Shown: positions 3,664-53,227, counted from the first letter of the stretch. The stretch is DNA of 64,000 nt from Tubiluchus corallicola (GCA_030141605.1 JAQGDQ010000887.1:1-64000), one strand, 5' to 3'. Translations and numbers: made by a program. The notes: a model not told the origin generated them from the letters alone.

Positions 3664-3830
3664 AGTTTGTTGATTACTTCGCTGAGGGTCGCGAATGTGT
3701 CAACTGCGGTGCCATATCAACACCGTTATGGAGGAGAGATGGTACTGGTCACTACCTGTGCAATGCTTGCGGCTTGTATCACAAAATGAACGGAATGAAT
3801 CGGCCATTAATTAAACCACAACGGCGTCTA
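3664..3830 (+). CDS. GATA4/5/6: GATA4/5/6 transcription factor, N-terminal zinc finger exon
   Basis: Acceptor tttacag at 3663; translates [56 protein letters not shown]; donor GTATGT at 3831, with an alternative in-frame GTGAGT at 3846. KPQRRL is the GATA4/5/6-type residue pattern. No upstream exons were found in the window. Confidence 0.97.
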
Positions 3831-4761
3831 GTATGTAACACACAGGTGAGTAAAGTTACTGCTAAGTGCATATTAATCTAGTTGTGCACTAAAGTAAAAA
3901 ATTATGTTACTTTACAGCAATTTTATGAGTATATCGTACTCGCGTTGAAAGGTTTTTTGTTTGTTTTCATTTTAAGTTTCCCGCGAAACTATTCCGACAG
4001 CGTCATTACATGACGTCATATACGCACAACGTAAATCAGGGGAAGAAAAGTAAATGTTGAATTATGTCCCAAAAAAGTTCCATGCAAAATTTTATTACTT
4101 AGCATTTCGTTTACCTGCTTGAAAGACTTATGTAACTAGAAATAATAATTTGAAATGTTCGTGTCAATTGGTAAAATGTCATTGACTCACCTACTAGGGT
4201 GCGCCCCTCACTAACCAAAAAACGTATTTTTAATCTTATTGACAAGATGCAGTATTTTAAAATTTTACTTACTTAGTAACATGTGTGCTGCGAATGCTCT
4301 GATTATTTTTTCAAACTTTACACAATGTTTTTTAACTTGTTTCAAATGTCTTATCGTCAAAATGGCTGCGTCTAACGGTCATCGCGGGAATTTAAATTTA
4401 CATGTTTTATACAGCGTTATTGCCGACGCAAGCCTAATTTACAAAACGGCAGTATGTAAGTGATATAAAATTACAAGACGAATTTTTAAGCTTTGTGTAA
4501 GTGGAGGGTTTTTTTGTACTTTAAATCCTAATCAGTGTATTATCACGTGCGTCATTAGTTGCTATCGTTGTGCCACTACCAATTAATGATGAGTGTTTCT
4601 GTCTTGTCAATTGTCATCATCGTAGCCACTACATGTATCATCATCTGGTTGTAAAATCTTTTAGAGCTTATGAAATGATAGATTCTAGCATTCGTTTTTC
4701 AATGCTTCTTACAAAACTGCAGTTTACAATCATATTAAGTTCATGTTGCTGTAATTATGAT

Positions 4762-5804: not shown

Positions 5805-6250
5805 AGGTTCCATTTGGTAATATTAGGTTCCATGGTTAGTTGGTTGATTCCACGGTAGTGCTATGTGTGTTCCATGGTAATGTTAGGTTGGTTCCTTGAT
5901 AATGTAAGGTTCCAAGGTCATATTAGGCTCTGTGGTAATGCAAGGTTCCATGGTAATGCAACATTCCATGGTAATGCAAGGTTTCATAATAATGTTAGGT
6001 TCCATGGTAATGTTAGGCTCCATGGTGGTGTTAGGCTCCATGGTAATGTTAAGTTCCATAGTAATGCTAAGTTCCATGGCAATGTTAGGTTCCATGGTAA
6101 TGTTAAGTACCATGGTAAAGTTAAGTTTCATGGTAATGTTAGATTCCATGGTAATGTTAGGTTTCGTGGTGATGTTAAGTTCCATGGTAATACTAAGTTC
6201 CATGGTAATGTTAGGTTCCATGGTAATGTTAGATTCCATGGTTATGGTTA
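5805..6250. repeat. 18-bp minisatellite, about 24 units, consensus GGTTCCATGGTAATGTTA
   Basis: Tandem units visible; lies in the GATA intron between the two finger exons. Confidence 0.93.
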
Positions 6251-6572
6251 AGCTTTAAAACATAAGAAAACATGTTGTATTTGGTTGACAAACATTTTAA
6301 GCTATTAAGAATTTTCTTTGCCAGTTTACATGAGTCTTTCAAACAGGTAAACGTAATGCAAGGTAATATAACTTTGTCAGAAAAGCTCTTTGGGAAATAC
6401 TTTAACAATTTTCTTTTATTTTATTCCTATTTCAAGTAATGAGTTCTGTAAAACTTTTACAATTTAGAAGCATCCACTGTTCAGAATGGTGGAAGCGGCT
6501 ATATGTTACATAACCCTCATGGCACGCCTTAAAGTCATTTAATAAGTTTTTATTCATTGTTCCACAATGAAG

Positions 6573-6701
6573 CAACCAGCATCAAGAAGACAAGGGTTGT
6601 CCTGTGCTAACTGCCATACTTCCACCACCACACTCTGGAGGAGAAACAATGAAGGGGAACCAGTGTGCAATGCCTGTGGACTGTATTTCAAATTACATAA
6701 T
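6573..6701 (+). CDS. GATA4/5/6: GATA4/5/6 C-terminal zinc finger exon
   Basis: Translates [43 protein letters not shown]; phase-0 acceptor AAG ending at 6572; donor GTGAGT at 6702. Confidence 0.96.
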
Positions 6702-7751: not shown

Positions 7752-7893
7752 GTAAACCGACCCTTAGCTATGAAGAAAGAGGGCATCCAGACCCGGAAAC
7801 GGAAGCCAAAAAATGCTAACAAAACCAAGACCAGCAATGGTTCCACCAGCAGCACAGATTCCAAATCTTTGCCTAATACACCAACTACTCCAG
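7752..7893 (+). CDS. GATA4/5/6: GATA4/5/6 basic-domain exon
   Basis: Acceptor ttgcag; [20 protein letters not shown] (GATA4/5/6 signature, versus TRNRK in GATA1/2/3) ... NTPTTP; phase-1 donor GTAGGA at 7894. Confidence 0.96.
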
Positions 7894-8575
7894 GTAGGAA
7901 TGTTTCACAGAGTTTATTATCAACTCACTATTAACTTTTATTAGACAAAAATATAGAAATACAGCCTCCATTACTTTGTTCTATCTAGACACTTTTCACC
8001 GTGCATCTGATACCTCCTGGCCAACCTTGACTTGGCGCATACAAATGTACACTAAATTGGAAAATGGCCTCAAGTTATACTGGCCAGTAACTTTTAGCCA
8101 TCATCTTTGGACGAATTTGCTCATTATCGTTCTATTACACGAGCTTTTGAAATTATAGCTTTAATGTTTAGCATGCAGAGTATGGGGCCCAGTTTTTCAC
8201 AATGTATCACTTCAGACTCATTGCACCATTCCTCGTAACAATTTGCACATAACTATAAGTACATGTAAAAAATTTCTGATCGGGAACCAAATGCAGAAAT
8301 GTAAAATTCTAATAAATCATTAAATTACTCCTTGAGATATATCAAGTTATTGACTGTTCAAAAGATCATGATGAGACAAGTTTACCTGTCTGTAATGATT
8401 GACCTTCTCAAGAGCAACAGACATTTGAAAAACACGACAGACAAAACAATTACAATACTCAAGACACAAAATTAGTAACAGTGAATTTGTAACATGAATA
8501 TGGAATTTCGTATTATTGTTTACTGCTAAAATATAAACCATACACAACAACTATACGGAAAACTTCTGTTTAGCA

Positions 8576-8693
8576 TTATGCTACACTTCATTGTTTTCTA
8601 TGGAAAAAACTGTTTGTGATGTGCTAATGCTTACTTATGCTACACTTCATTGCTTTCTATGGAAAAAACTGTTTGTGATGTGCTAATGCTTAC
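8576..8693. repeat. 59-bp direct tandem duplication
   Basis: TTATGCTACACTTCATTG...GTGCTAATGCTTAC occurs twice with one mismatch. Confidence 0.9.
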
Positions 8694-8854
8694 ATATATA
8701 CATATAACTTCTAACTGCATAAATTATATATAGTATGTGGAATAGTTTAAGAGTTGGGAAGCTGAAGACTTTGTTCATCCTGTTTCATTTTGCAAGCTGA
8801 TACTTATTAAGTCTGCACTCCAAAGTAATTTTGCAAAATTTTGGAATTTTTCAG

Positions 8855-8920
8855 ATGTGAAGCCACAACTGTCCTATAATTCACCTTATGCTGCTGCTAT
8901 GCTTTCAAATCAGTCACATG
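8855..8920 (+). CDS. GATA4/5/6: GATA C-terminal small exon A (66 nt, phase 1-1)
   Basis: Acceptor tttttcag; (D)VKPQLSYNSPYAAAMLSNQSH; donor GTAAGC; frame preserved from the previous exon. Confidence 0.85.
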
Positions 8921-9511
8921 GTAAGCTTACTAAACTACTTTTCAGAATTAATTAATAACTTTCAAACCACGCTTTAACAAATGAAATGCTTACCTTTGCC
9001 AGTGTGTAACTGCTGCAGTAATTGAAAATACCCCGAGAGCTGACCATTGGTCATAGGCTTAACCAGTGTACACTGAGCAGGACACAGAAATGCATGCAAC
9101 GGTTGTTTGTCAATGGGTGTTGATTCGCCTGGTTAACATGGTTGTGAGGAAATTGGTCAAAAGAAACTGCAGAAACAACAAAATTTAATTATAAGCTGCC
9201 AGGTTGCTCTTCTTGGTCCTCTATGCTAGTGGAACAGGTGCTATGATGGTACAAAGCACCTACTAGACCATGGGATCTTTCCACACAATGCATTTATGCC
9301 TGCTATGCATTGTTGAAATGCAGTGTTTTCGTACAAACGAGTACCAGCACAATGTAGATGGTGGTTGAAAATTATTGCCGTTATTATAAAAATCGTTAAA
9401 ATTGCTCAGTAATTATCTTACTGAGGTTGTCCTTACAACACTCTGCTTTCTCCAGCTGAGTAGGTTGTTTCTTAATATATTCAGTGTTGCTTGTAAGCAA
9501 AAAAGAATTAA

Positions 9512-10129
9512 AGGAAGCCTGGATGATTTTTTTACATTGTATCCCATTTTCAAGTCCGATAAAAAATAGACGTTTTAAAGCAATTAGTACTGCAAAAACG
9601 TTTCTGACAATTAAATAATAGAGTAAAAATTTAATTAAGGGTGTGCAAGCCCAACTGTTGATGACATCACAAACTAACATACTTTTCAATAGCAAAAATA
9701 TTCCACGAGTGTGTTGCATGTGTTTGCGAAAGTCAAAATTGAAGTACAGTGATACTGTAAGATATTCAGTGTGTTGTACTAAAACTAGGCAAGTTTTAAG
9801 ATAAAAATTCAAATTTTAAATTTACTGCTGTGCTCATGCATGAGCTGTCGAACGTGTGTAATTCGTCACACGCTTACACATCTGAATTGAGAGGTACAGC
9901 ACCTGTTTTTTGTCGAAAGCGTTTCTGAAATGTAGGCGCTAGTGCCTGTCTAGCCAACAAATGGCAAAATGCATGTATCAGGGAAGAACAAGTGACACGA
10001 ATGTGAAATTATGTTTGTGTGATAATAATTCTTTCACGTAAATCATTCTCAAAAAGTAGCACGTTTCTTTTCAATATTTTAAGGCATAGGTTGTTTTCAC
10101 CAACATTTAGGATTTGGTCCGGCTTTGCT
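9512..10129. mobile_element. Non-autonomous DNA transposon, Kolobok-like; second copy at ~19765-20259
   Basis: Flanked by TTAA; imperfect TIRs (AGGAAGCCTGGA / TCCGGCTTTGCT); long homology with 19850-20230, e.g. GATATTCAGTGTGTTGTACTAAAACTAGGCAAGTTTTAAG. Family assignment is inferred. Confidence 0.65.
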
Positions 10130-10158
10130 TTAACTTTAATCTATCGAATCTATTGCAG

Positions 10159-10230
10159 AGGTAAAGTCACTGAGTCAGCTCACTCAAGGACACACTTTCT
10201 ACTCGGCGCCTCTTATAACATCACCTGTAG
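10159..10230 (+). CDS. GATA4/5/6: GATA C-terminal small exon B (72 nt, phase 1-1)
   Basis: Acceptor tattgcag; (E)VKSLSQLTQGHTFYSAPLITSPV; donor GTAAGT; open and frame-symmetric. Confidence 0.75.
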
Positions 10231-10732
10231 GTAAGTACAGTGCCAGATTAGGGCTCTGCTGCTCCTAAGGCACATTTTGAAAAGTGGCCTGAAAATACAA
10301 ATTATTTGGGCTCTCACTGAGCAAAAGAAAAAAGTTAAACGTAGTAAAAGGAAGTTTATTACTCAAAAACCTTAGAACAACCAATATTTTTAAAACTAAT
10401 TACTATTAGTAGATATGCCCCTAGCTCGGCTTGGATTTCATGGACTTTTTAGATGGGCAGTATTTTGAGATGTGCCCCATCTACTGGCAAGACCAATACT
10501 TGAATTTCTCAAAACTATTGCTCAACTTAGATTTCATGACCAACAAAAAAGGAGATTTAGCAGCCTAAGCAGCAGAAGACTCACTCACTCATGCAGTACC
10601 CTGTCATTGGACAAATTGAGTTTCTTTTCAATCAATAATTTTCCTCTGATGTCATTGAGCTTTAACTCTACTGTCATTTGGTCAAACACTATTTGGTTGT
10701 CATGATTTCATAGGGGGTGTCAATAAAATAGT

Positions 10733-11226
10733 TGTTGGCTGGCATCCTTCTGTCTCGGAAGACAATGGAATGTGCGCCAAGAGAGTCCGATCCTTGAACG
10801 TCTCCAGGGTGCACGCCTGGGCTAGGTGTAAGGAGATCCTGAGTTGCCCAGACCACAGGAACCCCCTCTCTTCCTCCCTGGTGTAGTTCAAAGGAAAGTG
10901 GAACGATACGTTTGGTACCAAGTTGGCTGCAGGAGTCAGTGAGCATGCTGCACTGGTCCGCCTTCGGGGCTTCACTCCTGATTTGGAAGTTTTACTCCTC
11001 TACACATGGCCGTTGGGTCACTTGACCTCCTCCACCCTCTAGCCGTTGGCTGTTTGTACAGCTCCTCCGCCTAGTGTCGAGATACAGTGTGAGCCTACAG
11101 CACCTGGTATTCCTAGGCGGTCGCCCATCCAAGCACTAACCAGGCTCTACGTTGCTTAACTTCAGTGATCAGACGAGAACCGGTCTTTTCAACGTGACTT
11201 GGCCATTGTATGAATATATGAATATA
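10733..11226 (-). mobile_element. 5S rRNA-derived SINE (SINE3) with RTE-like 3' tail
   Basis: 11092-11210 is a full-length, diverged 5S rRNA sequence on - (...GAAGTTAAGCAACG...TTGGATGGGCGACCGCCTAGGAATACCAGGTGCTGTAGGCT); body and tail shared with 28335-28602; 12-bp TSD CAATAAAATAGT (10721-10732, 11227-11238). Confidence 0.9.
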
Positions 11227-11456
11227 CAATAAAATAGTAACCAATCTTTAATACTAATTTAAGTAACAAGTAATATTTCAGTATCTATCTATGTCAGTCT
11301 TCTGCAAGTGAAATATGCATTTATTACATCAGGGAGCATTTATTTCACATTCCTGAATAGTATCTGTAGTTTCTGTAACATGTACTTAAACGCATATAGA
11401 CTAATAGACTGGTGCAATTTGTCTTTTTTTAAATTTGATTTTTCATTTCTTCATAG

Positions 11457-11498
11457 ATATCAAACCAATCGTAAGCCCTGGAATGGTGTATAATATAG
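11457..11498 (+). CDS. GATA4/5/6: GATA C-terminal microexon C (42 nt, phase 1-1)
   Basis: Long polypyrimidine tract plus catag acceptor; (D)IKPIVSPGMVYNI; donor GTAAGA. Confidence 0.78.
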
Positions 11499-11924
11499 GT
11501 AAGATAATTATTAGTCAGCAGTCTGCATTTAGAATTCTATCAATATAAAAACTTCTGCTTTGCAAATTTGCTAGACACTGTAGAAACGAATCAGCAAGGT
11601 GTAACATGGTTTATGGATCTGACAACTAATCAGTTTGTCCAGGTATCATAATCCCATTGACAATGTCCTACTGTTTCGTTAAAATGTCTCTGTACCTTGC
11701 AATCCTAACTCTGCCAATGGCAACTTATAACATGCAAACAGGTTCAGAAGCAATGATTCATTCTAATGTATGACCACCATTTTGAACTAGAACTGTCTCG
11801 ATGTTTCTAATGAATAAAGTACATTTCCTCCCTCATATAAGGGTGACATTTGTGTGGCTTTATCTCTGAAGTTTTATAGCAAGAAAACTAATAGTATCTA
11901 ATTATTTAGATTGTTTTCTTTTAG

Positions 11925-12205
11925 ATACAAAACCCGTGTTTGATGATGCCAAACCTCTAGAAGCACACACTTCCCCATATCCAACTCACTTAATGTCCGG
12001 GCAGCCATTGCCTGACATCACCAGTGGACATGTGGTCAATATGCCAAATTCGTCATCCGGTAATAATCTAGAAGTAGCAAGTCAAGGGTCAAACTCCACT
12101 TTGCATGGACAGCAAGTTTCCGGTGTCTTTCCTAATCCGTCGCCTCCACAGGCTGTTCCGATTAATCTGGACACATCAACCGGTACCACCGCCAGCTCAA
12201 ACTGA
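11925..12205 (+). CDS. GATA4/5/6: GATA terminal coding exon
   Basis: Acceptor ttcttttag; (D)TKPVFDDAKPLEAHTSPYPTH...PSPPQAVP...ASSN then TGA; S/P/T-rich; followed by an AT-rich stretch without obvious repeats, compatible with a long 3'UTR (AATAAA near 13942). Confidence 0.85.
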
Positions 12206-14377
12206 TACATGGCAAATGGAAACTATAATTATGCTCATAATTCACTCTGCTCAATCTACTGTCAAGTGCACAATAATGCTCATTATCGTATGATTTTGAA
12301 AATAAAGGAGATCACTATATCTACAAAAAATGTCTTGCATTTTTACCATAGTAGTCACGGGAAGAGTGCTTTGTGTACATTCAATATCCAGCTAGATATG
12401 CTTTAGAAGTGCATCCTGGTTTTCCTGATGTGCAAGCTAAGGTAACATGCAGCTTTTTATGACACATTTGTCCTTGTTACCAAACTGCTAATGTCAAGGG
12501 GTCTAAACTGTTGATGAAAATGTCATGAATGTTAGCAAGAATGAGAAAATTGTTTATAGCAAATCAAGAAACTTGCTGTTGTGTTAAAAATAAATATTTT
12601 TGGTTTATAGTTCAGTTGCAACTAGTCCATTTCTGTGATTTTTATAACTAGTGTATTAGCATTAGGCCGGGGTCTTCCATACATAAATTATGTTTAGCTC
12701 ACTACATATACTAAGCAAAGTCCACCAAGTACCAATACGGTTTCTTGCTTTACTGTCTTAAGTATAAAACAGTGTCACCAGTTATTGGCGTTATGAATCT
12801 GTCAATATGTTTACTTACACAATACATTATAGCAGCCAATATTGCACCATCGTGTCAATAACTAATACTCTGCCATTAATTCAGTCCAAAGTCTACAACA
12901 TTGGAGTATTGTCAACAAATCAGCCATTTCGTACCTACAGCAAGGGCATTAAGGGGTTGTAGGACTGTAAAAGGGAATGCAACCAAATGGAAAGGAACCA
13001 AATGAGTCTACACAGATAATGTGTTAAGAAATAATGCTTTTTATGGAATCCATCTCTCTATAAGTTTAACCTGTCTTTTTGACCTAGTACACCTTTGCAT
13101 GAGCATACTTAGGAAAAGGATTTTTTGTGAATATATGTTGTAATATTCACCAAGCTGTGGACCAATAAGGATGAAGAGATTAGGAACATACAAGTGTGAT
13201 AATTATCACCCAACTTTTAATCTTCAAAAATTGCACAGTCACGCTAAGTTTATAACTGCAGGTAATTTGTAAAAATGGAGAACCAATGGAATAATGAGCT
13301 TTTATGGCAATAAATGCAGCTTACTTCCACTTCCACTTTCATTCCATTGACTTGATTTAGACGTCAATAATTGGACGAATCCATGTGAATAGCAAATAAC
13401 ACAAAGTACTACAGTTACAATCGTGAACGTATCTAAAAATCCTCATCACTAGGAAAATGCTAGAATGAGCAATGTCTAAGCACAGCTGCCATAACTTGTA
13501 ATTTCTACTGCATTTACCCAATTTCAGCTTTCGTCTAGTTTACTGTAAAATGCACATCTTAATCACAGAAAACAAAATGTACAGCCTCTGTGTAACCTTT
13601 ATACAGTTAGTCAAATTTGCACACTATTGTATTAATGAGTAATATAATTATCTACTGATATTACAATTAATTTTAGCATACGTGCGGCACTTTGCAAAAT
13701 GTATTTGAACGTGTACTTGGTATTATTTTCATACTGCACAGTGAGATTGTTAAAAACTAAAATCATAATAAATTGTTACTTACTGCCATTATAATGTTAC
13801 ATTTTTAATTGTTATTTGCTGTATAAAATCAGGTAAGTCTATTGTGACATATTGTCTGTAGCTATAATTATACTGGGTTACTGGCAGCTATATATTAATT
13901 TATATATAACTGTGTTATTACTGCGTATGCACTACAACTACAATAAAATTTTAATTATCTGGTTTTATGTTACACCTGTGGTATGTAAAAATTATTTTTT
14001 ATACTGAAATCATTCACTGTCAGATGCTTTTTATTTGGTCTAGAGCTTTAAATAATGCCTTGAAACTCTTGCCTTGACTTAATTACGTAGCCATGCTGTC
14101 TTTAAACAGATATTCGTTTACATTTTATACCCAAAGTTAGATAAATAAATAAATATGGTGTAAAACACAGTTTTCTAATCTTTCAGTTGCATTTGTCTTC
14201 ATTGTCGCACTACTTTTCGTCTCTTATTTAAGTCTTTAATTGAGTACGAATTCTTTAATTCGATATACACACATCCTTCTCCATGTCCAGGCAAAAAGTG
14301 CAAATAAAATTCAATTCAATTTAGTTCATTTTATGCACGCTGTTGCACAGTGCACAGAGACTTTGTGCTGTGTGCAG

Positions 14378-23920: not shown

Positions 23921-24865
23921 CTAAATTGAGCTAACTCGCGCAATTTCTTTGAAATATTTTTCTTTTAGTAACTGTATGTATTGTAACTGACTCCTGCTTA
24001 ATCTGTCACATAAAGACGGGGTTATTTCTATCCGCTGGCTCCAAAATGATTCTGGGATAATTATTATTGGTGCTGACGAATAATCATTTCTCGCACTTCG
24101 ACTCTGGCACACCCTCGACACTATATTGTTAACAGTTCGAAAGTGCTTGAGTTCTTCCCCAAAATGCCTTTCTTTTGAGATTTTCAACCAAAAGGTTTTG
24201 TTAAAATGCTTAAATAAGGCATGATCAACTTTGCTCCACTTTTTATGTTTTTTTAGTAACGATTTATTGTGGGATGCTGCATCTGTGAATAAATTCTTAG
24301 AACTTTTGTTTTGTGAACGATACAAAATGCTAGAAAGAGGCCAGCACATCAACCTACGCATTAAAATCAATGACTCATCGAAGTAATTGCTGATCATAAC
24401 CAAATCGAATTCTGAATCGATTTTCCTCACGAAAGAGTCGATAATCGATTCGGTTTCGGATTCAAATTTCCCACCACCAAGATCAAAAGACATGAAGTTT
24501 CTATAGTAACTTGTTATTTTAAATTTCTCCCTCCAGCTTTCCGAGTCGTCCATAAACAAAGCCGTGGCTTCTGAGAAATCGTCGGTGACGTTCAATCGTT
24601 GGAAGTGATCAAGGAGCTTGAAATAATTCAATGCAGACATGAACTGACTAAATGGTTCCCGGATCGCGGTCACGTACTTTGTATCGGCTGCCAAGAGGTC
24701 GTCAAAGATCTCCCGGTTGTACAACGCATGCAGAGCGATCATATCAAATGTTTCTCTACCGCCGAGGAGCGGAAGATAATGTCTTTCCTTCATCTGATTA
24801 GGCCACCCTAGATTCCATTCATCAGTTGGAAGTACACTAGTCAGATTCCATTCGTCAGCAAACCT
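23921..24865 (-). CDS. GAL3ST: Galactose-3-O-sulfotransferase-like protein, last exon
   Basis: Acceptor tttcag then RFADEWNL...; motifs TAIREPFSQFMSALNYF (3'-phosphate binding), NFMSFDLG, FDLVMISNYFDESLILMRRLMCW and WSKVDHALFKHFNKTFW are typical of the Gal-3-O-sulfotransferase family; stop at 23921. Confidence 0.92.
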   Translation of the reverse strand, partial: RFADEWNLTSVLPTDEWNLGWPNQMKERHYLPLLGGRETFDMIALHALYNREIFDDLLAADTKYVTAIREPFSQFMSALNYFKLLDHFQRLNVTDDFSEATALFMDDSESWREKFKITSYYRNFMSFDLGGGKFESETESIIDSFVRKIDSEFDLVMISNYFDESLILMRRLMCWPLSSILYRSQNKSSKNLFTDAASHNKSLLKKHKKWSKVDHALFKHFNKTFWLKISKERHFGEELKHFRTVNNIVSRVCQSRSARNDYSSAPIIIIPESFWSQRIEITPSLCDRLSRSQLQYIQLLKEKYFKEIARVSSI

Positions 24866-26022
24866 CTGAAATGAAAAAAAAACATCAGAAACCAGCAATT
24901 TTAAAGGAGAATACCCTAATATTTCAAACTTTAATTTACACTGGAGGGTCGGCCACAGGAGCCCATTAGGAGGTCTTTAGTATTTCGCGGATGTAAGGCA
25001 ATTGGAACAAATTTGCGAAGCCACAGATTCACGAGATATATAAAATTTTGGAGATAAAAATAAGTTCATTATAGACTTTTAATCTCGAGGATACATTGAG
25101 ATGTGCAGTTAAAATGTACACGAGTAAACTGACCAAATTCAATATTTAATAGAATACGATAAAAGCTACAAGTGAGCAAACGAAGTGTGCACTTTGTCTT
25201 TTAAAAAGTAAGCATTTTAATATGACAAAAGTGCAACAAAGCATAAAAGTGACGTACATTAATGAACTGAAAATAGCAAGGGATAGGTTGCTTGTAAACT
25301 ATGTAAAAGTCTATGTTGAGTTTATGAACACATCAGAATGGGAAACACAGAATATAAATTTAAATAGGTAAAAAAGAAATATAGTGCATCAGCGTGTTTT
25401 ATTTAAAACTAACTACAAAGATCAGCCAACCATGTCAGCGAAGTTATACTAATAGACTGAAAATCATTTAAAAGTGTTGCTTTAAGTTACTTGGCCACCA
25501 AGCTAAAGCAGCCTTAAGCAGGAATGGTTTCTGAATATCAAGTAGCAAAATTGGCACACAAAACCGATACAGCTATTTTTGCAAGATAACTAAAAAAACA
25601 GGCAGCCATTTACAATTCAGTGACGTTTGTGTATCCTTATTTTACGAATTTTGGTTGTTTTGCAGTCCCAATGATGTTAATTGGCTTTTCCCGGAAAATC
25701 TTACCAATATGACATTGCCAACTCGTGTTTCGTGGATATTAATTCACTCACGTTTTCAAGCTTAGTCTTCCTTGCGTCATTTTCAAGACAAACTAGTTTT
25801 TGTAATAAAAATGTTGCTGTCAGCTAGTACAATTACTACAGTTTGTGTCTTGAAATTTTAAGAGGTACACAGACACGTGCTCTGGTATAGTTATAATTAA
25901 AAAATTCGATAGTTTTTTTATTTGATTCGTATGCTGCCTCATTCTACTATAATAATAATTCACGATAATAAAGCCCCATTCTACACGCGTGACACTAATA
26001 AAATTACTTAAACGTGTCTCAC

Positions 26023-31803: not shown

Positions 31804-34800
31804 TGTTGTGAACTTGAATAAGTCCACAAGTCTCTAGTAATATTAATGTCTTCAAACCAAATAATTGGCACTACTTTTTCCCAAGTTTTGACTGGTGGAA
31901 GAATACTCGTTTGAGTAAAACTTTTTTTCAGACCAGTTTTGAGTCAGGTGTGGCTTTAGCTCTAGGAAAAACGGTTGTGTTACTGATTCTATAAAAACAT
32001 ATGAAATTAAAATTTATAGAAATTTAATTTTGAGTTAAGGTGTTTTGTGATTTAGTTTTAAACTAGTATACTGAAATTCCGTGAAAAGAGAAATTCACGA
32101 CATGGAGGCACCACCCGGATAGATTGTTTACACGGATGAAAAGAAAACCGTAAGTTGGATCTGCCATTTACCTTTTCGGCTCGACCTAGATTTATCTGAT
32201 AAATTTACTTCTACAAGTCTAGTGGCTTCGCACCGTATAAACTGTAATGCTTACCGTCTATTTAACTGCATGAGCAGAAAATGCTATGGTTTTAAAAGGC
32301 AAGTTCAAAAATTCAGATTTGTATTGGAATGAAGTGAAACGTACATGACTGTAGAAAAAGCGAAAATAGTAGCTGTCTAAATTACCGGAAGTGGAGACAT
32401 TACAAATTGTGTTAAAAACTGGAAATGAACTGAATAGAAATTGTTGGAAAACAGGGCTGTTCCCGCTAATAAATATTAATCACGGGCAAGTGAAAACAAA
32501 TTGAAAGATACATCGGCACTTTCGCCTGTGAAGATTTTATATAGAAACATTGCAGAACACTGGAAAATATATGTGAAAAAGCTGAGGAAGTCACAGCAAA
32601 ATACAACCGGTTAGACAGGCTGTTCCTGTACATCAAATCTGACCTAAAATGCGGAATAATTAAAAGACTGATCCTATATGTAAATTAATTCCGCAAAAAT
32701 ATTCTTGAAAAAATCAAATGACATCCTGAAAACCAAATTTTGGGAAAAACGGAGAACGGAAAAATAGTTAAAAAATTCAAAAGATCATGGCGGCAAAACT
32801 ACGTCAAAGAATTGGACCACAAATTTCATTTTTGAAAAAGGCAGTTAACGAAGCCAATGAATTATTGGGTTGTGAATTACGAGGAACTGATGAAGACGGT
32901 CTCCTTCAGTTCAGACATAAAGCTACTGCTTTGCACAAACGTGTCAAACAGAACTTACAAAAAACTGAGGAATACGTTGAAAAATATGAACTGTACTTAG
33001 AAAAATCAGACGCTGTCACAGAAACAGATACTAATTATTATCAAAACACAATAATTGAAGGGGAGGAATATTTTAGTCTCGCCGGTGCAAGTGATGATTG
33101 CTTAATTGAACTTGAAACATTTGTGACAGAAATAGATCAACGTATTGAAAGAATCCAAGCTGGCTTACTGAGTCCTATATTTGTAACTAAACCTGATGTG
33201 AAACCAGTCATTACAACAGTTGTTCCCAGCATACACTCTCCAACACAATTAGACGCANNNNNNNNNNNNNNNNNNNNNNNNNNNNNNNNNNNNNNNNNNN
33301 NNNNNNNNNNNNNNNNNNNNNNNNNNNNNNNNNNNNNNNNNNNNNNNNNNNNNNNNNNNNNNNNNNNNNNNNNNNNNNNNNNNNNNNNNNNNNNNNNNNN
33401 NNNNNNNNNNNNNNNNNNNNNNNNNNNNNNNNNNNNNNNNNNNNNNNNNNNNNNNNNNNNNNNNNNNNNNNNNNNNNNNNNNNNNNNNNNNNNNNNNNNN
33501 NNNNNNNNNNNNNNNNNNNNNNNNNNNNNNNNNNNNNNNNNNNNNNNNNNNNNNNNNNNNNNNNNNNNNNNNNNNNNNNNNNNNNNNNNNNNNNNNNNNN
33601 NNNNNNNNNNNNNNNNNNNNNNNNNNNNNNNNNNNNNNNNNNNNNNNNNNNNNNNNNNNNNNNNNNNNNNNNNNNNNNNNNNNNNNNNNNNNNNNNNNNN
33701 NNNNNNNNNNNNNNNNNNNNNATTAGTAAAGCAAATAGGATAACTCGACAGTTACAAACACAGGGTATTGACATCTCTGGACATCCTCCTGCAGTGCAAC
33801 ATTTGATTTCAAAGTTACCAGCTTCTGTTCTGATAAAATTAGAGGAAAACAAAAGTTTAACAGAGTCATGGACGATGCCAGTGCTAACAGTTTGTTTGGA
33901 AAATTACTGTAAAGTAAGAGAACGTGTACAGTATACCCTTGACAAGGTCTGGATCAAACCAGAAGAGTTACAATTCTGCAAGTGCAAACCCAACAAACCT
34001 ACAATCAAAAAAGGGCAGAACATTTAGTAGCCTTTCTGAACCTATACGATCAATGTCAAGAAAGTCTCAACGGTTTCCTTGTGTTTTTTGTAAAGCAACA
34101 GACCACTTTAATTCAAATTGCACGGCATGTCCAGGTATAGAAGAACGTCGTGACATATTGCGGAAAGAAGGCCGATGCTTCTTGTGCTTACAGGATAAAC
34201 ACATGTATCGCGTATGCCCGAAAAAAGAAACACAAAACTGCTATTTTTGCAAAGAAATGGGTAAGCACAATCAAGCCATCTGTCCTAAAAAATTTGGGAT
34301 TACACCAGTTAATAGAAACAACTCCTCAAACAACACAAGCAATTTTGCAGCAGCTAGCACACCTCCAGAGCCTGATTCGAGTATTACTAGTGGAGGAAAC
34401 TCAGAATCCTTGCCAAAAACTGGTAACGAATACTCCATGGTAGCATCGGGGAAATACGTCATGTTCCTGACTGCAATAGTGAAAGTAAAATCACCAGTTG
34501 GGGCCAAACCAAAAGCTGTGGTATGCAGATTAATTCTCGATACTGCTAGTTCACTAACATACATCTGCAAAAAATTGGCAGACGAATTGAAATTGCCAAA
34601 TCTAGGCCAACAGTGTTTAGATGTTTGTACTTTTGGTGGTTCCTATAAGAAGTTACCCAGTTTTCTGTCAGAGTTAGACATAGTCTTGCTTGATGGTAAA
34701 ACAAAACGAATAGCAGGGCATGTTGTTGACCAAACGACTGGAAATGTCAAAAGAGAACAGCTTTGCAATGAAGATTTAAAATTTTTGAAGAAAATGGAAT

Positions 34801-37800
34801 TTGAGAAATTTGCAGACAAAATCCCAAGCTCGACAGAAAGTTTTGCTCCAGAAATCTTGGTTGGGATGGATTATTATTTTGACTTCGTTCAGCAGGGAGC
34901 AGACAGAAAATTGCCATCTGGACTAAGTTTGATTAATTCAAACTTGGGTCTACTAATTGGTGGTCGTGTTGAAAGTGCAACAAGGAAACCACAAAGCCTT
35001 GCTGCCTGTTCATTTCTCACTAGTGCAACCACTTGTCCAAGTGAAAAACAGTTTAATGAGATAATGAAACGAATCGAACCGCATCAAGAGACATGCCAGA
35101 AACCATGTGACTTCTGGTCTTTAGAGACGATTGGAATCACTGACGATCCTGCTTCTTCAATGAGTGATGAAATTTTAGCTGATTTTGGAGAGACACTTCA
35201 GTTCTATGAGAATAGATACTGGGTGAGATTCCCATGGAAAGACAAACAACCATCATTGCCAAACAATTTTGGATTAGCTATAGGAAGATTTCGTTCTCTC
35301 TGTCGCCGATTTGAATCTGATAGGAATTTGATGTTAAAGTGTACTGAAATTATTGAAGAACAAGAGAAGCGAGGAGTAACAGAAACTGTTACAGAAGACA
35401 CAGAACTTGGTTTAGTAGAGCATTATTTGCCATATCATCCAGTTTTAACTCCTCAGAAAACTACAACAAAGGTTCGCTTGGTATACAATGCCTCAGCAAA
35501 GGCAAACAAACATTCCTCATCATTAAATGACTGTATACACCAAGGTCCTAATTTGCTGCCGGAACTAATAGGAATCTTATTGCGTCTGCGGCTCAGCCCC
35601 ATTGCAATGTTAGCTGATGTCGAAAAAGCCTTTTTGAATATTGGGCTACAGACTATTGACAGAGATGCAACTAGATTTCTCTGGTTGAAGAATCCAGAAC
35701 TACCAAAAGCTGACCATAACTTCATTGTGAACCGGTTCTGCCGAATTCCTTTTGGCATAAATGCCAGTCCCTTTTTATTGGCAGCAGTCCTGAGGATCCA
35801 TTTGTCAAAGTTTGGAACAACAACTGCAGAAGAGATAAAAGCCAATAACTATGTGGATAACGTTCATCTCTCTGCTACTACTGTGGATGAAGCATTCAGC
35901 AAGTATTTGGAAGCAAAGCAAATTTTTGACAGTGCTTCACTTAATCTCCGCGAATGGATAAGCAACAGTGAAGAGTTCCTAAATAGAATACCTGATGTAG
36001 ATAGAGCAAAAGAAACTGAGTTTAAAGTACTAGGCATTACTTGGCTCGTGAAGTCAGACCATTTGCTGATTAATATGCCTACAGGTTTTACCACATCTGA
36101 GCATTTGACAAAGCGGAATGTGCTGAAAATGGTTGCTTCGGTATTCGATCCTCTGGGATGGTGGAGTCCAGCAATTGTGAATGCTAAACTGCTGTTCCAA
36201 GATTTGTGGAAAGAAAACTTGTTGTGGGATGATTCTGTTCCCAAACAGTACGAAAAAAGATGGAAAGAAATAGTCGATTCGGTTAAACCAATCGATAATG
36301 TTTTGATACCACGAAGAATCACCATGGCTGACCAATCTGCATCCTACAATTTGGTAACATTTACTGATGCATCTTCAACTTGCTATGGAGCATGTGTCTA
36401 CTTGGTTGAGTCATCACCTACAACCATGAATAGCTCCTTGATCTTCGCAAAAGTGCGTCTAAGGCCTGTGAATTCGAAGAAAAAGGGCAAAGAACTTACA
36501 ATACCAAGATTAGAACTAATGGGAGTTCTCATAGGTATTCGAGCAATGACCTTTGCGGAAAACCAACTCAAACTTCCTGTGAGTGGTAAAACACTATACT
36601 GTGATTCACAAGTTGTCCTACAGTGGATTGGTTCAAAAAGGCAACTGGAACCTTTTGTACAAAATAAGGGTTCAGGAAATTCAAAAGGCTGAAGCTGTGA
36701 CATTCAAATATGTCCCCACCAAGCAAAATCCAGCAGATATACTGAGCAGAGGAACATCTGCAGAGAATTTGATGTCAAATGATGTCTGGTGGAGTGGACC
36801 GCCCTGGCTATTTGAGCCTGTGGAAAAATGGCCAGATTTTATAGTGCCGACTGAAAACCCAGAGCATGATAGAAAACCCGAATCCACAATGATGTTGACT
36901 AGTGACAATGTAAAACTACTGAACTGTGAAACGTTGCCACTTGAAATGTGTGACACTCGATTTTCATCATTTCAGAAAGTACTTCGCGTGACTGTAGTTT
37001 GTCTCAAGTTTGTTAAAAGGATTCTCAATACTCGAACAAATAGAGGATTGAAATTTACAAATGAAAACACTGGGGACAGTGTAAGAATAATTTCCGATCA
37101 TTCAGAAATAAATGGAGAAGAAACTCGTTATGCAGAACATTTGTGGTTAAAAAGATTGCAGGCACAGTACTACAACAATGAAAAATTTGCAATTCTTGAG
37201 GGAAGAAAAACCACTCTTCAACAACAACTAGGTCTTTTTATGGATTCATCTGGATTAATTCGATGTGGTGGCAGATTTTACCAGTCACACACTGAAGAGA
37301 GCGCTTATCCAGTGTTGCTTCCTAGAAAACATTGGATTACTAGCTTGTTTATAAAGGACGTCCATGAAGCAGTATTACATGGACGTACAAACCATACGCT
37401 CTCTGAACTCAGACGTAGATATTGGATACCCAAAGGACGTGTTGAAATAAACCAAGTATTAAAGGACTGCATGATTTGCAAAAAACATTCTGGCAGACCA
37501 TTCTCTCGTCCAGCGTTTCCCCCTTTTCCAGAAGAAAAGCTGGCAAGAGCTTTGCCATTTAGCATAATTGGACTGGACTATTTTGGACCAGTTTTCTTGA
37601 AGAACGACACAAATAAGAAGGCATGGTGTGTACTAATAACATGCTTGCTCTGTCGAGCAGTTCATCTTGAACTAGTTTTAGATATGACAACTGTGTCTTT
37701 TCTAGATGCTTTTCGGAGATTTGTTTCCCGGCGAATCCTGCCTGAGAAAATATTTTCGGACAATGCAAAACAATTTCATACTGCTGACAATTATCTGAAA

Positions 37801-39231
37801 TTTCTATGGAAAAATCTGGCTGATGATAAAGAAGTAAATCAGTACTTGAGCTTGCATAGAATAGAATGGATATTTGTGCCCGAACTCAGTCCATGGCAAG
37901 CAGGGTTTTATGAAAGAATGGTAGCCACAGTCAAATCTGCCTTAAAGAAATCCCTTGGACGAAAATTACTAATGGCACAACAAATGGAAACCACACTTTG
38001 CGAAATAGAAGCCTTGGTAAATACCAGACCACTAACTTATGTGTCAAATGATCCTGCAGATTGGCAACCACTTAGACCAGTAGATTTCTTGAATCCTGGA
38101 TTTTCAGGAATTTTGCCTGATCCACCATTAAAGCCAAAAGATGATCCAGATTTTATCTTAGAAAGATTATCAACGAGTGAAAATTTGTGCAAAATCAGAG
38201 AAAAGCAAAATCAAATTTTGACGGATTACTGGAACCGATGGTCACATGAATACCCACAGTCGTTGCGAGAACGTTTCAATGTTCATCATAAATCAGGAAA
38301 AGGTGATATTAAACGGCAGCCAACAGTTGGAGAAGTTGTCCTCATCGAAATGGAAAACACCCCACGTGGAAATTGGAAACTCGGAGGAGTAATTCAGCAT
38401 ACATACAGCTGAGATGGCAAAGTGAGATCAGTTAAAATACAGTTACCATCAAAGAAAGAAGTAAACCGACCTGTCAATCTACTAATTCCTCTGGAAAGTT
38501 ACAGCGAGGAAACCAAGAGCTCATCAGTCGAATCAGAAACCATGGAACAAACGGAAAGTCAGCAAAGTATCCTAACTAGTTTGCCAAGAGCATCGAGGAA
38601 GGAAGCCGGAAGACGAATCCAGAAACTAGTTAAGGAAAATCTGCTGCTTAACATTGTATCTTACAAATAACATTTTTGTTTTGATCTGATATAATTTCAG
38701 TTTGATTTAATGTCAAGCTTTGCCACACCAGTAACAGATTTGCATCATTAAAGTAATGTGTAATGTAAAAGTAATTTTTCAAGCTGGAATGTTTCATGTT
38801 TTAAAATTTAAAGGAAAAGACCATACATTTTTGTTGTTTTGTCAATACCATTGCTATTTAACAGTAACTTATAACATATTTTAAGTGAATGGAATGGAGA
38901 ACCTTGTTTTTTTACATCTTCCTCCTCCCCGAGTGTTGTGAACTTGAATAAGTCCACAAGTCTCTAGTAATATTAATGTCTTCAAACCAAATAATTGGCA
39001 CTACTTTTTCCCAAGTTTTGACTGGTGGAAGAATACTTGTTTGAGTAAAACTTTTTTCAGACCAGTTTTGAGTCAGGTGTGGCTTTAACTCTAGGAAAAA
39101 CGGTTGTGTTACTGATTCTATAAAAACATATGAAATTAAAATTTATAGAAATTTAACTTTGAGTTAAGGTGTTTTGTGATTTAGTTTTAAACTAGTATAC
39201 TGAAATTCCGTGAAAAGAGAAATTCACGACA
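31804..39231 (+). mobile_element. Full-length BEL/Pao LTR retrotransposon
   Basis: LTRs 31804-32102 and 38934-39231 (TG...CA); 5-bp TSD AGCCC; PBS TGGAGGCACCACCCGGAT; gag-pol ORFs inside. Confidence 0.97.
32787..38670 (+). CDS. BEL/Pao Gag-Pol polyprotein (Gag Zn knuckles, protease, RT, RNase H, integrase), frameshifted and gapped
   Basis: CVFCKATDHFNSNC/CFLCLQDKH knuckles; LDTAS protease; ADVEKAF, PFGINASPFLL and YVDN in RT; FTDAS and TIPRLEL in RNase H; H..H..C..C, GLDYFGP, SDNAKQF and GFYERMV in integrase; frame breaks near 33920, 36660 and 38390; N gap 33258-33721. Confidence 0.93.
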
Positions 39232-41259: not shown

Positions 41260-44200
41260 AACCTAAAGTCAGATGTCATAAAGCTGCAACGGCAAACGCT
41301 GTAACGTGAAGACGAAAAGCGCAACAATTTTTTTCTACTACACATTGTAAGCAATTTCATCTGCCGTACTGAAACACGGATTCACCGCGGTATGGATGAA
41401 AGGGAGTTAGTTATTTATCGATGCGTTTCAACAACATCAGCGTCTCGATCGCTGGGGTCAGGTGAGTGGAGAATTTTCTGTTTGTGTCACTAAGCAGCTT
41501 CTGTAAAGGCAATTAGTAGAACGGAGCTGATTTGTGCAAGGAGGAGACCTCGTGCAAAATGGCGTAATTTTATAACAAAGCAATTTCGTGACAAGATCCA
41601 ATTTATGTCTTGGTTGCTTGCAAACAGTTGTCTTTTGTCTTTTTTTTAATAAAGAACCATAACAAACAGCGGTGGGATATCAGGGATCCAAGCTCAGGAA
41701 TCAAGGATAAAATGTTATTATAGTGTTTTAACAGCAATTTGAAAGCAGTAGTGAAACAGCGACGATAGCAAGCATGGTTATAACTGGACCAGGTTGGTGG
41801 TAATGTAGCTGGAGTCCCAGCAGCTCCTGTAGCGTCATTACCGGTAGTACAGGCACCGAGCTTCGATGGCAGTTCAGACTTTGATAAATTTATTAAGAGA
41901 TTTGAACGAGTAGCAATCGCGAATAACTGGGATAATACTAAGAAATTCCAAGTTTTGCCAGCCTTGCTGCATGGTAAAGCAGAGAATGCATTAGATACCC
42001 TACCTGATGCAGCTAATGATTATGAACAGTTGAAAGCGCACTTAAAGTGTATTTTTCGCCCTGAGCAAGCACAATGATTGTATCTTACCCAGTTTAATCA
42101 GCAAACTCTGAAGCGAGATGAGTCACCATTCGCATATTGCAAGCGATCTTAAGAAACTATTTCAGGCGGCTAATCCTGAAATAACTGATGCTAATGTGAT
42201 TGACCGTTTTTGTGTACGACGTTTCATAGAGGGTCTTAAACCAGAACAGCGCACAAAGTTTTATGAAGCTGACATTCATACACTCGAAGCAGCTATTAAG
42301 AAATTAAATAGTGTTCTAATTACGAGAGATGTAGTTAGTAAGCAAGAAAATAGTGTTGAACGGAGACAGCAGCCTACAGCAAGACGTCAGTTTAATAAGA
42401 GTGCTCATCACGAAAAGCCACTTCAGTCTAGTATAGTTTGCAAGTACTGCAAAAAGCCAGGGCATACACCAGAAGCTTGCGTGAAATGTTTCAAGTCTGG
42501 ATTGAGGGGTCATCTAGCACGAAAATGTTATACCTCATGTAATGCATGTAAACAAAAGGGGCACATAGCTCGCAACTGTACTTTAGCTAAATCTCCAACA
42601 GCCGTGAAATGTGATACAACTTTAAGCAGACGAATTACTGGTGAAGATGATAGCTTGGGTGTGAAACTGGCTCTGGGTCAGAGAGAAATATTAGCTATAT
42701 TAGATGGAGGTTCAACGCGTTCTTTGATCAGTTAAAAGCTGTACAACAAGCTGGAATTAGTTTTGTGCCTACTTCCGTAAATGTGGTAGCGGCTGATCAA
42801 AGCATTAGTTTGAAAGTGCATGGCACTACTGTTATTACAATTCCTGTGTCTGATACAAGGAATGTCAAGCTTCAGTTCATTGTAGCAGATTGCGATGATG
42901 CTATGATTTTAGGTATTGATTTCTTACGAGCAGCTAATGTTGTCATTGACCATGGGCGTGGTGCTGTAACTGTAGAAGGAGCACCTGTGACAGCATATCG
43001 AAACGGAGTACCAGTGCCCATTGTCACTTGCCGAGAAAATGTTGTTTTGCCACCAGCGTCTGAGACCATGATCCTGGCAAAAAGTAGTCGACCGTTTGTA
43101 ACTCGTCGTACAATGTTTCTAGAACCAGCAGTTGTGGGAATTCCAGGTTTGGCTTTAGCTCGAGCCTGTGTTAATCCTGATTCAGAGAATATTCCAGTAC
43201 GATTGATGAATTTCACAAAACACCCTGTTGTGTTGCAGTCGGCTTCCGTGCTGGGAAGATTGCAGTCTGGTGATTGGGAGCCTCTTGCTAATGCTGTTAC
43301 TGTTGAGTCTATGAAGGAAAATAAAGCTTCAGTAGAGGAAGCAGGTGATTTGAAGCAAATCAAGGAGATTGATTTATCCAATCTAAATAAAAGGCAGAAG
43401 CAGAAATTGCAAGATCTGTTGATCGAGTACAAAGATATCTTCTCCTTGCATGGTGAGCTAGGACGAGTGCATAGTGTTGAGCATGCAATTAAGGTAACAG
43501 GACCACCTATAAAGCAAAAGCCATATCGCGTGCCAGTTCATTTAAAACAGGAAGTCGATGAACAGCTTAAGGAGATGCTAGAGCAGCAGGTGATAAAAGA
43601 AACCGAGTCACCATGGGCAAGTCCGATAGTCCTTGTCCGTAAGCATCATGATGGAAAATATAGATTCTGCGTAGATTACAGACGTTTGAATGCTGTTACA
43701 CATAAAAGTTCGTTTCCACTTCCAGGGATGGATCAGCTACTCAATAGTGTAGGAAACGCAGCTTGGTTTACAACACTGGACCAGAAAGCAGGTTACTGGC
43801 AGATTCCTTTAGAACTGGATGCCAAAGAGAAAACAGCTTTTGTAACAGAATAGCCGTATGAGGTTGAGCAAAGTCTAGAGGCTTAATAGTAGTTGGTGAT
43901 AAAGTTATGCTGAAAGTATTTGCTGTAAAGCGTGATAGAAAAAAGAAATTAGCTAAACGGTATGAAGGGCCGTATAAAGTTGTTAAAAATTTAGCACCTG
44001 ATTATGTAATTCAGTCAGCAAATGGTAAGCCATAATAGTTCATGGAAATCATTTAAAACTGTGTAATGTAAATGTTGATAAAGCTAATGATGTAATTCAG
44101 CTTGAATCAAGTTCGGGAGGTGCAGAACCAGCTGATGCATGTGCCGATAAAAATGTATGTGTAGATGTAGATCACATGTGGCAACTTCCTGATGTTAGAA

Positions 44201-52539: not shown

Positions 52540-53227
52540 TCATTCATCAATATTTTTTAGCCATGGCTTTACTTTGCTGTGCGTGGGTTTGTGCCTCTTC
52601 AAGTTACCTGAGTGAACAAATGTCTTATCGCACATGTCACATTTGTACGGTTTAATGCCAGTGTGAATGCGACTATGCGTTGTCAAACCGTCAATGCGAC
52701 TAAACATCTTACTACAATAACTGCATTTGTAAGGCTTTTCTTTTGTGTGTGTTCTGGTATGCATATTCAGCGTTCCTGTGAATCGGAAAGTTTTTTCACA
52801 CAAGTCACATTTGTAAGGTTTCTCGCCCGTATGTATTCTCATGTGCCTCGTCAAGTTACTGCGCTTCGTGAACGTCACTTGACATACGTCACACATATGC
52901 TGATCATATTTGCGCCGGCATTGGCGAACACGCTCTAGTTTTGTGACGTCACTGTCACACTGGGTCGTCACGCGGTGAAGCACTTCGCTGTTGCACTGGA
53001 CGGTTGTAGTCACGTGGTGGTAATTGGTGACATCACTGGCGGTGCTAATTTTCTCGGATGAACCCGTTTCTGCACAAGAGAGAAGAATCTCTTCCAAATA
53101 GGTTTCGGTCAGTGGACCTAGTTCAATCAGCGTTTGCTCCGCCTGAGTTTCGTCTCCAATAATGACGTTATTCCAAACAAAATAATCCGTCATTGCAAAT
53201 TTACTGGTAACATACTCAATCAAGCAT
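52540..53227 (-). CDS. C2H2 (Kruppel-type) zinc-finger protein, 4 fingers, terminal exon
   Basis: CDVC..H..H, CDLC, CSYC and CDMC fingers with TGEKPY-type linkers; acceptor ctttcag at 53228; possible start at MTDYF. Confidence 0.88.

What the first reader, a model, noticed from the sequence alone, without database searches (positions are those of the whole stretch)
7893..11960. GATA C-terminus built from symmetric phase-1 cassette exons, each regenerating a [D/E]-x-K motif at the splice junction
Seen: exons of 66, 72 and 42 nt and the last exon all follow a phase-1 G, so the junctions read DVKP, EVKS, DIKP and DTKP, with an internal DAKP soon after. Any subset of the three cassettes can be skipped in frame (8 combinations) and the acidic residue is always rebuilt. 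The ORF track misses these exons in their coding frame. Established: [ED]xK[hydrophobic/P] is the inverted SUMO consensus, and vertebrate GATA4 is SUMO-regulated. Inference: a module expanded by exon duplication that lets splicing set the number of modifiable lysines.
Basis: partly seen in the sequence, partly recalled or inferred. Interest (0 to 1): 0.78.

Follow-up and report, generated by a model that had tools for sequence, protein, structure and literature searches.

The report
Exon-duplicated SUMO-type sites in GATA tail
A GATA4/5/6 gene-regulator gene, likely from a priapulid worm, has its tail split into small exons that each begin with the same short motif, likely copied from one ancient exon start and predicted to be attachment sites for the SUMO tag; the exons are spliced together in close relatives' assembled sequences, but the exon skipping that would tune their number was not seen.

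Summary
Exons 8855-8920, 10159-10230, 11457-11498 and 11925- are phase-1, join in frame, and the junctions read DVKP, EVKS, DIKP, DTKP. Contigs of a close relative cross three of the four joints, and a relative's protein includes all exons, with EIKP in place of EVKS. The gene is a GATA4/5/6 grouping with Priapulus. Exon 8855 resembles the last exon beyond the motif, which supports duplication for 1 of 3 cassettes. Abalone, mussel and blowfly records imply that a D-x-K-[PT] split at its D by a phase-1 intron is ancestral in protostome GATA456. So 'regeneration' is likely a by-product of copying that exon start. DxKP is an enriched human SUMO motif (PMC13213312), so SUMOylation is plausible but untested; GATA4's K366 is a forward-type site. 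No skipped form was seen, but the data (contigs) cannot exclude one. Best reading: a mostly fully spliced tail with four to five SUMO-type sites. The splice-tuned count remains a hypothesis (about 0.2). The scan noted similar exon-amplified motif arrays in other genes (PICH, MPDZ), none for GATA.

The parts
3664..3845 (+). GATA zinc finger 1 exon (used donor 3845; second in-frame donor candidate at 3830)
   Evidence: joint 3845^6573 in X2; P0001 carries the 5-residue extension
6573..6701 (+). GATA zinc finger 2 exon
   Evidence: Pfam PF00320 on P0001
7752..7893 (+). Basic (lysine-rich) exon, ends in a phase-1 donor
   Evidence: joint 7893^8855
8855..8920 (+). Phase 1-1 exon c1, 66 nt, junction motif DVKP; likely a copy of the last-exon DAKP unit
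   Evidence: 22 of 22 residues identical in P0001; similarity test
10159..10230 (+). Phase 1-1 exon c2, 72 nt, junction motif EVKS (EIKP in the relative)
   Evidence: 18 of 24 residues identical in P0001
11457..11498 (+). Phase 1-1 exon c3, 42 nt, junction motif DIKP
   Evidence: 11 of 14 residues identical in P0001
11925..12205 (+). Coding part of the last exon: junction motif DTKP, internal DAKP at 11945-11956, SPPQAVP-type motif shared with other invertebrate GATA456, stop 12203-12205
12206..14149 (+). Probable 3' UTR (AATAAA at 14144 among several)
   Evidence: X2 pieces at 12131-12283, 12454-12534, 13591-13866, 13948-14149; end not shown

Best explanation
This is the tail of a GATA4/5/6 gene, likely of a priapulid worm, in which one likely ancestral module (a phase-1 splice acceptor followed by D-x-K-P) was likely copied several times, leaving four junction motifs and one internal motif that are predicted to be inverted-type SUMO acceptor sites and that are all present in the transcript forms seen. 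Shown: exon structure, reading frames, splicing and full inclusion in close relatives. Inferred: ancestral junction (from protein isoform records of three other protostomes), duplication (sequence support for one exon), SUMOylation by UBC9, and a damping of transactivation by analogy with the GATA4 synergy-control site. Because every copy inherits the same acceptor and exon start, symmetry and 'regeneration' of the acidic residue follow automatically and need no selection for combinatorial splicing.
For: Joints in X2 and full inclusion in P0001. Tree: P0001 with Priapulus GATA456, SH-aLRT 100, quick tree of 30 proteins. c1 versus DAKP unit after removing the motif: in-register p = 0.0004, local 0 of 1000 shuffles, DNA 23 of 48 matches p = 0.00095; 12 of 15,515 real tail windows score as high; both units also match the second Priapulus DIKP unit (local p = 0.003). 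Junction at the D elsewhere: abalone-cluster read-through ORF P0281 departs from the spliced protein just before DVKP; Mytilus isoforms differ by 5 residues beginning GK just before DVKT; Lucilia box A-binding factor (serpent) isoforms diverge at the D of DIKP. DxKP 28 times in 136 GATA tails versus 1.83 in shuffles, maximum 5 of 200. DxKP and ExKP enriched among human SUMO sites; S. pombe Pmt3 K30 in DVKPST is an acceptor in vitro. Neither priapulid-type tail has a forward motif, whereas 66 of 136 tails do.
Against: Only 1 of the 6 pairs among the window's four units is similar beyond the motif, and 66 pairs were tested in all; the gapless register is lost in P0001 (p = 0.65) because of a 3-residue insertion, though the local score stays (p up to 0.002). 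No exon-exon or intron-intron DNA similarity otherwise. One of 4 informative records has the junction after, not within, the motif (P0132 versus P0285). The other junctions are inferred from proteins, not DNA. Forward and inverted motifs are not mutually exclusive across tails (Fisher p = 0.51), so 'replacement' is not shown. 134 foreground against 1561 background DxKP matches means most DxKP lysines are not high-confidence SUMO sites. c2 has lost the proline in this genome.
Confidence: 0.5

Rival explanations
1. One reading: the three exons are regulated cassettes, and skipping sets the number of SUMO-type lysines (two to five) in different tissues or stages.
For: All subsets stay in frame. 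Lucilia serpent isoform records keep or lose the DIKP-bearing tail at this junction and Mytilus records vary the donor there. Short symmetric exons are the usual substrate of skipping (established). Unchecked notes report many duplicated alternative exons in this genome.
Against: None of the 9 joints listed for X2 skips a cassette; P0001 includes all; 4 of 4 Priapulus caudatus records have the same 149-residue tail; donors are near consensus, like those of the zinc-finger exons.
Confidence: 0.2
2. The exons arose by duplication, but D-x-K-P is not a SUMO site here: it is a docking motif for a cofactor, a site of another lysine modification, or a tolerated repeat in a disordered tail.
For: The enrichment in GATA tails is specific to proline at +1 ([DE]xK[VILMF] 15 versus 9.4 in shuffles); most DxKP lysines are outside the high-confidence SUMO set; SUMO and ubiquitin often share lysines (PMC13213312 abstract).
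Against: The D at -2, I/V at -1 and P at +1 are each the most enriched residues at those positions around human SUMO sites; GATA tails are independently rich in forward SUMO motifs (81 versus 3.9).
Confidence: 0.2
3. The repeats arose inside one large terminal exon and introns were gained later at the G|A of each acidic codon.
For: The DTKP-DAKP pair sits inside one exon, 7 codons apart, so intra-exon repetition happened at least once; fragmentation of a motif-bearing terminal exon is described for NCoR (PMC4554918 abstract); a fly, a snail and Priapulus have tail motifs whose exon positions were not checked here.
Against: Independent insertions hitting 4 of the 6 motifs is unlikely (1.2e-4 among G-first codons; 0.045 if only D/E codons could be hit).
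Confidence: 0.1

Closest known systems
Priapulus caudatus GATA456 (P0267/P0123; midgut marker, PMC4434581 passages)
   Same: Sister in the tree; shared N-terminal motifs; tail with two DIKP units and no forward SUMO motif.
   Different: Two units instead of five; exon boundaries could not be read; its four records do not differ in the tail.
Vertebrate GATA4 K366 SUMO / synergy-control site (PMC3334497, passages)
   Same: SUMO-type lysine in the C-terminal tail of a GATA4/5/6 factor; K366R raised activity on the promoter tested.
   Different: Forward psi-K-x-E type, single; 0 of 109 mostly vertebrate tails carry [DE][VITA]KP while 47 carry a forward motif.
Inverted SUMO motif [ED]xK-psi, DxKP/ExKP subtype (PMC13213312 section 41 part 1 and supplement 5; PMC4490555 passages; S. 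pombe Pmt3 K30, PMC2727700 passages)
   Same: DVKP, DIKP, DTKP, DAKP match exactly.
   Different: EVKS does not; no modification tested; here the acidic codon is split by an intron.
NCoR/SMRT CoRNR-box exons (PMC4554918, abstract and outline)
   Same: Short linear motifs spread over small 3' exons of a transcription regulator.
   Different: There alternative splicing is demonstrated (NCoR2) and the exons came from splitting one large exon; here skipping is not seen.
COE/EBF duplicated helix exon (PMC2394523, abstract and outline)
   Same: Tandem exon duplication in a transcription factor with mandatory inclusion; a precedent for the constitutive reading.
   Different: A folded dimerisation helix, not a linear motif.

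Membership tests
GATA4/5/6 class | Two GATA zinc fingers plus basic region on three exons | tested here: met
   layout described in PMC2383905 and PMC2857956
GATA4/5/6 class | GATA-N type N-terminal motifs | tested here: met
   PF05349 on relative P0001, E 3.7e-08; the exon itself lies outside the window
GATA4/5/6 class | Truncated third exon followed by further 3' exons; grouping with named GATA456 | tested here: met
   (no GATA123 outgroup was deliberately included in the tree)
Inverted SUMO acceptor motif | [ED]xK followed by hydrophobic residue or P | tested here: met
   4 of 5 window motifs; EVKS fails; 5 of 5 in P0001
Inverted SUMO acceptor motif | Located in a disordered, accessible region | tested here: inconclusive
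   Model pLDDT 29 everywhere, zinc fingers included; low-complexity S/T/P-rich composition suggests disorder
Inverted SUMO acceptor motif | Conjugation of SUMO at the lysine | not testable with these tools
   needs an assay
Alternatively spliced cassette exons | Symmetric phase, length divisible by 3 | tested here: met
Alternatively spliced cassette exons | Both inclusion and skipping junctions in transcripts | tested here: inconclusive
   Inclusion only; contigs of one run and one protein
Tandem exon duplication | Homology among exons beyond the shared motif | tested here: inconclusive
   Met for c1 versus last exon, not detected for c2 and c3

The most novel reading that the evidence does not exclude
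Protostome GATA456 genes carry an ancient SUMO acceptor whose acidic residue is completed only by splicing; priapulids amplified this exon start into a row of skippable cassettes, so that splicing dials the SUMO load, and hence the strength, of the gut-specifying factor from two to five sites.
Probability: 0.15. Interest if true: 0.72.

Novelty: new variant of a known kind. Interest (0 to 1): 0.42.

Why it matters
PMC2857956 (section 8) states that no conserved motifs had been identified in the 3' ends of GATA456 genes. The data here point to one, D-x-K-[PT] straddling a phase-1 intron, in a priapulid-like worm, two molluscs and a fly, and show a lineage in which it was multiplied. That gives precise K-to-R targets for testing SUMO control of endoderm GATA factors in tractable animals, and a clean example of how copying an acceptor plus exon start multiplies a modification motif. 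If regulated skipping is found, it would be a splice-set dose control of SUMOylation. As it stands it is a modest, lineage-level elaboration.

Tried and rejected
No whole genome is held, so no genome-wide control for exon starts. No RNA holder listed for the stretch; X1 behaves as DNA and gave no splice joints in the rows shown. DNA similarity among the four exons with or without flanks: none of 12 tests below p 0.05; among intron ends: none of 12. Search with the last exon for longer proteins found 1 of 125 candidates, P0001; search with a tail alignment for 51-301-residue fragments or skipped isoforms found 0 of 4803: weak negatives. Search for further hidden cassettes in 7894-11924 found no additional acceptor + motif. 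AlphaFold model of P0001 was uninformative (mean pLDDT 29.2), so no fold search was run. The careful tree did not finish; the quick tree was used. Mutual exclusion of forward and inverted motifs: not supported. A recalled RXR-alpha DIKP SUMO precedent was searched but not read, and is not used. Breaks between X2 contigs near 10230 were considered as a hint of branching and rejected as uninterpretable. Paper searches listed no report of this exon architecture or of junction-split SUMO motifs in GATA genes; most subscription papers are outside the library, and the supplements of the two GATA evolution papers were not read and may show the tail introns.

Full report
Observation. The window's first 12.2 kb hold the 3' part of a GATA gene: zinc-finger exons 3664-3845 and 6573-6701, a basic exon 7752-7893, three small exons 8855-8920, 10159-10230 and 11457-11498, and a last exon from 11925 with its stop at 12203-12205. 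The junctions read DVKP, EVKS, DIKP and DTKP, with DAKP seven codons into the last exon, and all 8 skip combinations stay in frame. The pattern acceptor + [DE]xK[PS] occurs 4 times in 7894-11940, against a mean of 0.16 in 2000 shuffles. The N-terminal coding exon is outside the window: the relative's protein matches only from residue 271.

Transcript evidence. Two runs were listed, neither on record as RNA. Run X2 (RNA by the tool's guess; mostly 85-95% alike, so a relative) has contigs with GT..AG joints at 3845^6573, 7893^8855 and 8920^10159, and a joint across 11498^11925 with five replaced letters. Of the 9 joints listed, 4 are these splice joints, 5 lie in intronic repeats, and none skips a cassette; 10230^11457 is not listed. 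An unnamed 577-residue protein, P0001, found with the last exon (89% identical), includes all exons: c1 22 of 22, c2 18 of 24, c3 11 of 14 residues identical, with EIKP for EVKS. X2 and P0001 differ from each other at a few residues, so they are two records, though perhaps one species. The exons are therefore real and conserved. Contigs drop rare forms, so skipping is neither shown nor excluded.

Identity. P0001 has two GATA fingers and GATA-N and groups with Priapulus caudatus GATA456 at SH-aLRT 100 in a quick tree of 30 proteins that I picked from the hits. An earlier unchecked note also called this genome likely priapulid. The single P. caudatus GATA456 is a midgut marker (PMC4434581, passages). 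Its tail has two DIKP units and is the same in 4 of 4 records.

Origin. With the four-residue motif removed, c1 still aligns in register with the DAKP unit of the last exon (5 of 18 identities; p = 0.0004; local score 0 of 1000 shuffles; DNA 23 of 48, p = 0.00095), and only 12 of 15,515 real GATA-tail windows score as well. I noticed this pair by eye before testing; it is 1 of 6 pairs among the window's units and 1 of 66 pairs tested, and the register is broken by a 3-residue insertion in P0001. c2, c3 and the introns show no such similarity. Three other protostomes suggest that the junction itself is old. A read-through ORF in the abalone cluster leaves the spliced sequence exactly before DVKP. 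Mussel isoforms differ by five residues beginning GK, the signature of reading through a phase-1 donor as seen here, immediately before DVKT (3 of 18 records short). Blowfly box A-binding factor isoforms diverge at the D of DIKP, D versus A, both G-first codons. One unnamed record has its junction after the motif instead (P0132 versus P0285). That is 3 of 4 informative cases, all inferred from protein records. If one acceptor plus exon start is copied, each copy is automatically phase 1 and restarts with D-x-K-P, and any upstream donor supplies the G. The 'regeneration' is thus likely inherited, not evidence of a combinatorial design.

Motif. In 136 of 149 representative GATA proteins with a readable tail, DxKP occurs 28 times against 1.83 in shuffles, while [DE]xK[VILMF] is barely enriched (15 versus 9.4) and control permutations are not or only weakly enriched (2 versus 3.9; 9 versus 3.6); homologues are not independent draws. 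[DE]xKP copy numbers are 0 in 111, 1 in 21, 2 in 2 and 3 in 2 tails, so four (window) or five (P0001) is the highest seen. In a reanalysis of human SUMO proteomics (PMC13213312: abstract, passages, part 1 of section 41, rows of supplement 5) DxKP and ExKP are 8.7- and 7.1-fold enriched in the top set, with D at -2, I/V at -1 and P at +1 favoured; yet 134 foreground against 1561 background matches shows that the motif alone is not sufficient. S. pombe SUMO K30 in DVKPST is an acceptor in vitro (PMC2727700, passages). GATA4 K366 is sumoylated, lies in a forward synergy-control motif, and K366R raised activity in the intestinal assay (PMC3334497, passages). Among 109 mostly vertebrate tails, 47 have a forward motif and 0 have [DE][VITA]KP, so the GATA4 precedent is an analogy, not orthology of the site. 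Both priapulid-type tails lack a forward motif.

Mechanism. Most likely (0.5): a disordered tail with four to five inverted-type SUMO acceptors, built by serial duplication and normally fully included, which would damp or tune transactivation as the GATA4 site does. Structure and inclusion are shown; ancestry and duplication are inferred; SUMOylation and its effect are untested. Rivals: regulated skipping (0.2), a non-SUMO role or none (0.2), intron gain into earlier repeats (0.1).

Known systems and novelty. It is a GATA456 member by the features tested. It resembles NCoR (motifs on small 3' exons, splicing shown; PMC4554918 abstract) and COE (duplicated exon with mandatory inclusion; PMC2394523 abstract). 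PMC2857956 (section 8) reports variable 3' exons and no conserved 3' motifs in deuterostome GATA456; PMC2383905 (passages) deals with the zinc-finger exons. Searches listed nothing on this architecture. PMC4490555, PMC7390632 and PMC6680281 were read as passages and agree that inverted motifs can work alone. Earlier scan notes describe exon-amplified motif arrays in PICH and MPDZ on other DNA, unchecked by me. Verdict: real, a new variant of a known kind, interest 0.42.

Noticed in passing
window 3830 / 3845: The first zinc-finger exon has two in-frame donors 15 nt apart; the relatives' records use 3845, adding five residues to the inter-finger linker. Abalone, mussel, clam, scorpion, fly, sea star and brittle star isoform records vary at the same linker, so this may be the better candidate for alternative splicing in this gene.
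   Followed up: partly
window 7858-7893: Inside the basic exon a CAG precedes a phase-1 DSKS unit of 12 codons that ends at the donor; possibly a fused former unit or a cryptic acceptor, possibly chance.
   Followed up: no
P0195 / P0297; P0115 / P0305; P0281: Blowfly serpent-type isoforms keep or lose the DIKP-bearing tail at the junction; mussel and abalone records place a junction at the D of DVKT/DVKP. A testable, apparently ancient feature of protostome GATA456.
   Followed up: partly
P0143: A Biomphalaria GATA-4-like protein has three D-x-K-P motifs in its tail, an apparently independent amplification.
   Followed up: no
window 32772-38409 and 41784-43850 (+): Retrotransposon ORFs: Pao-type peptidase/RT (PF05380, PF00078) next to an assembly gap, and a second RT-bearing element.
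   Followed up: partly
window 23924-24976 (-) and 52543-53262 (-): Galactose-3-O-sulfotransferase exon (PF06990) and a C2H2 zinc-finger exon.
   Followed up: partly
window 5859-6255: An 18-nt tandem repeat in the intron between the zinc-finger exons is open in several frames; no X2 cover.
   Followed up: no
P0123, P0265, P0266: Three predicted Priapulus records have a garbled first zinc finger compared with the cDNA-type record P0267, probably an assembly or model error.
   Followed up: no
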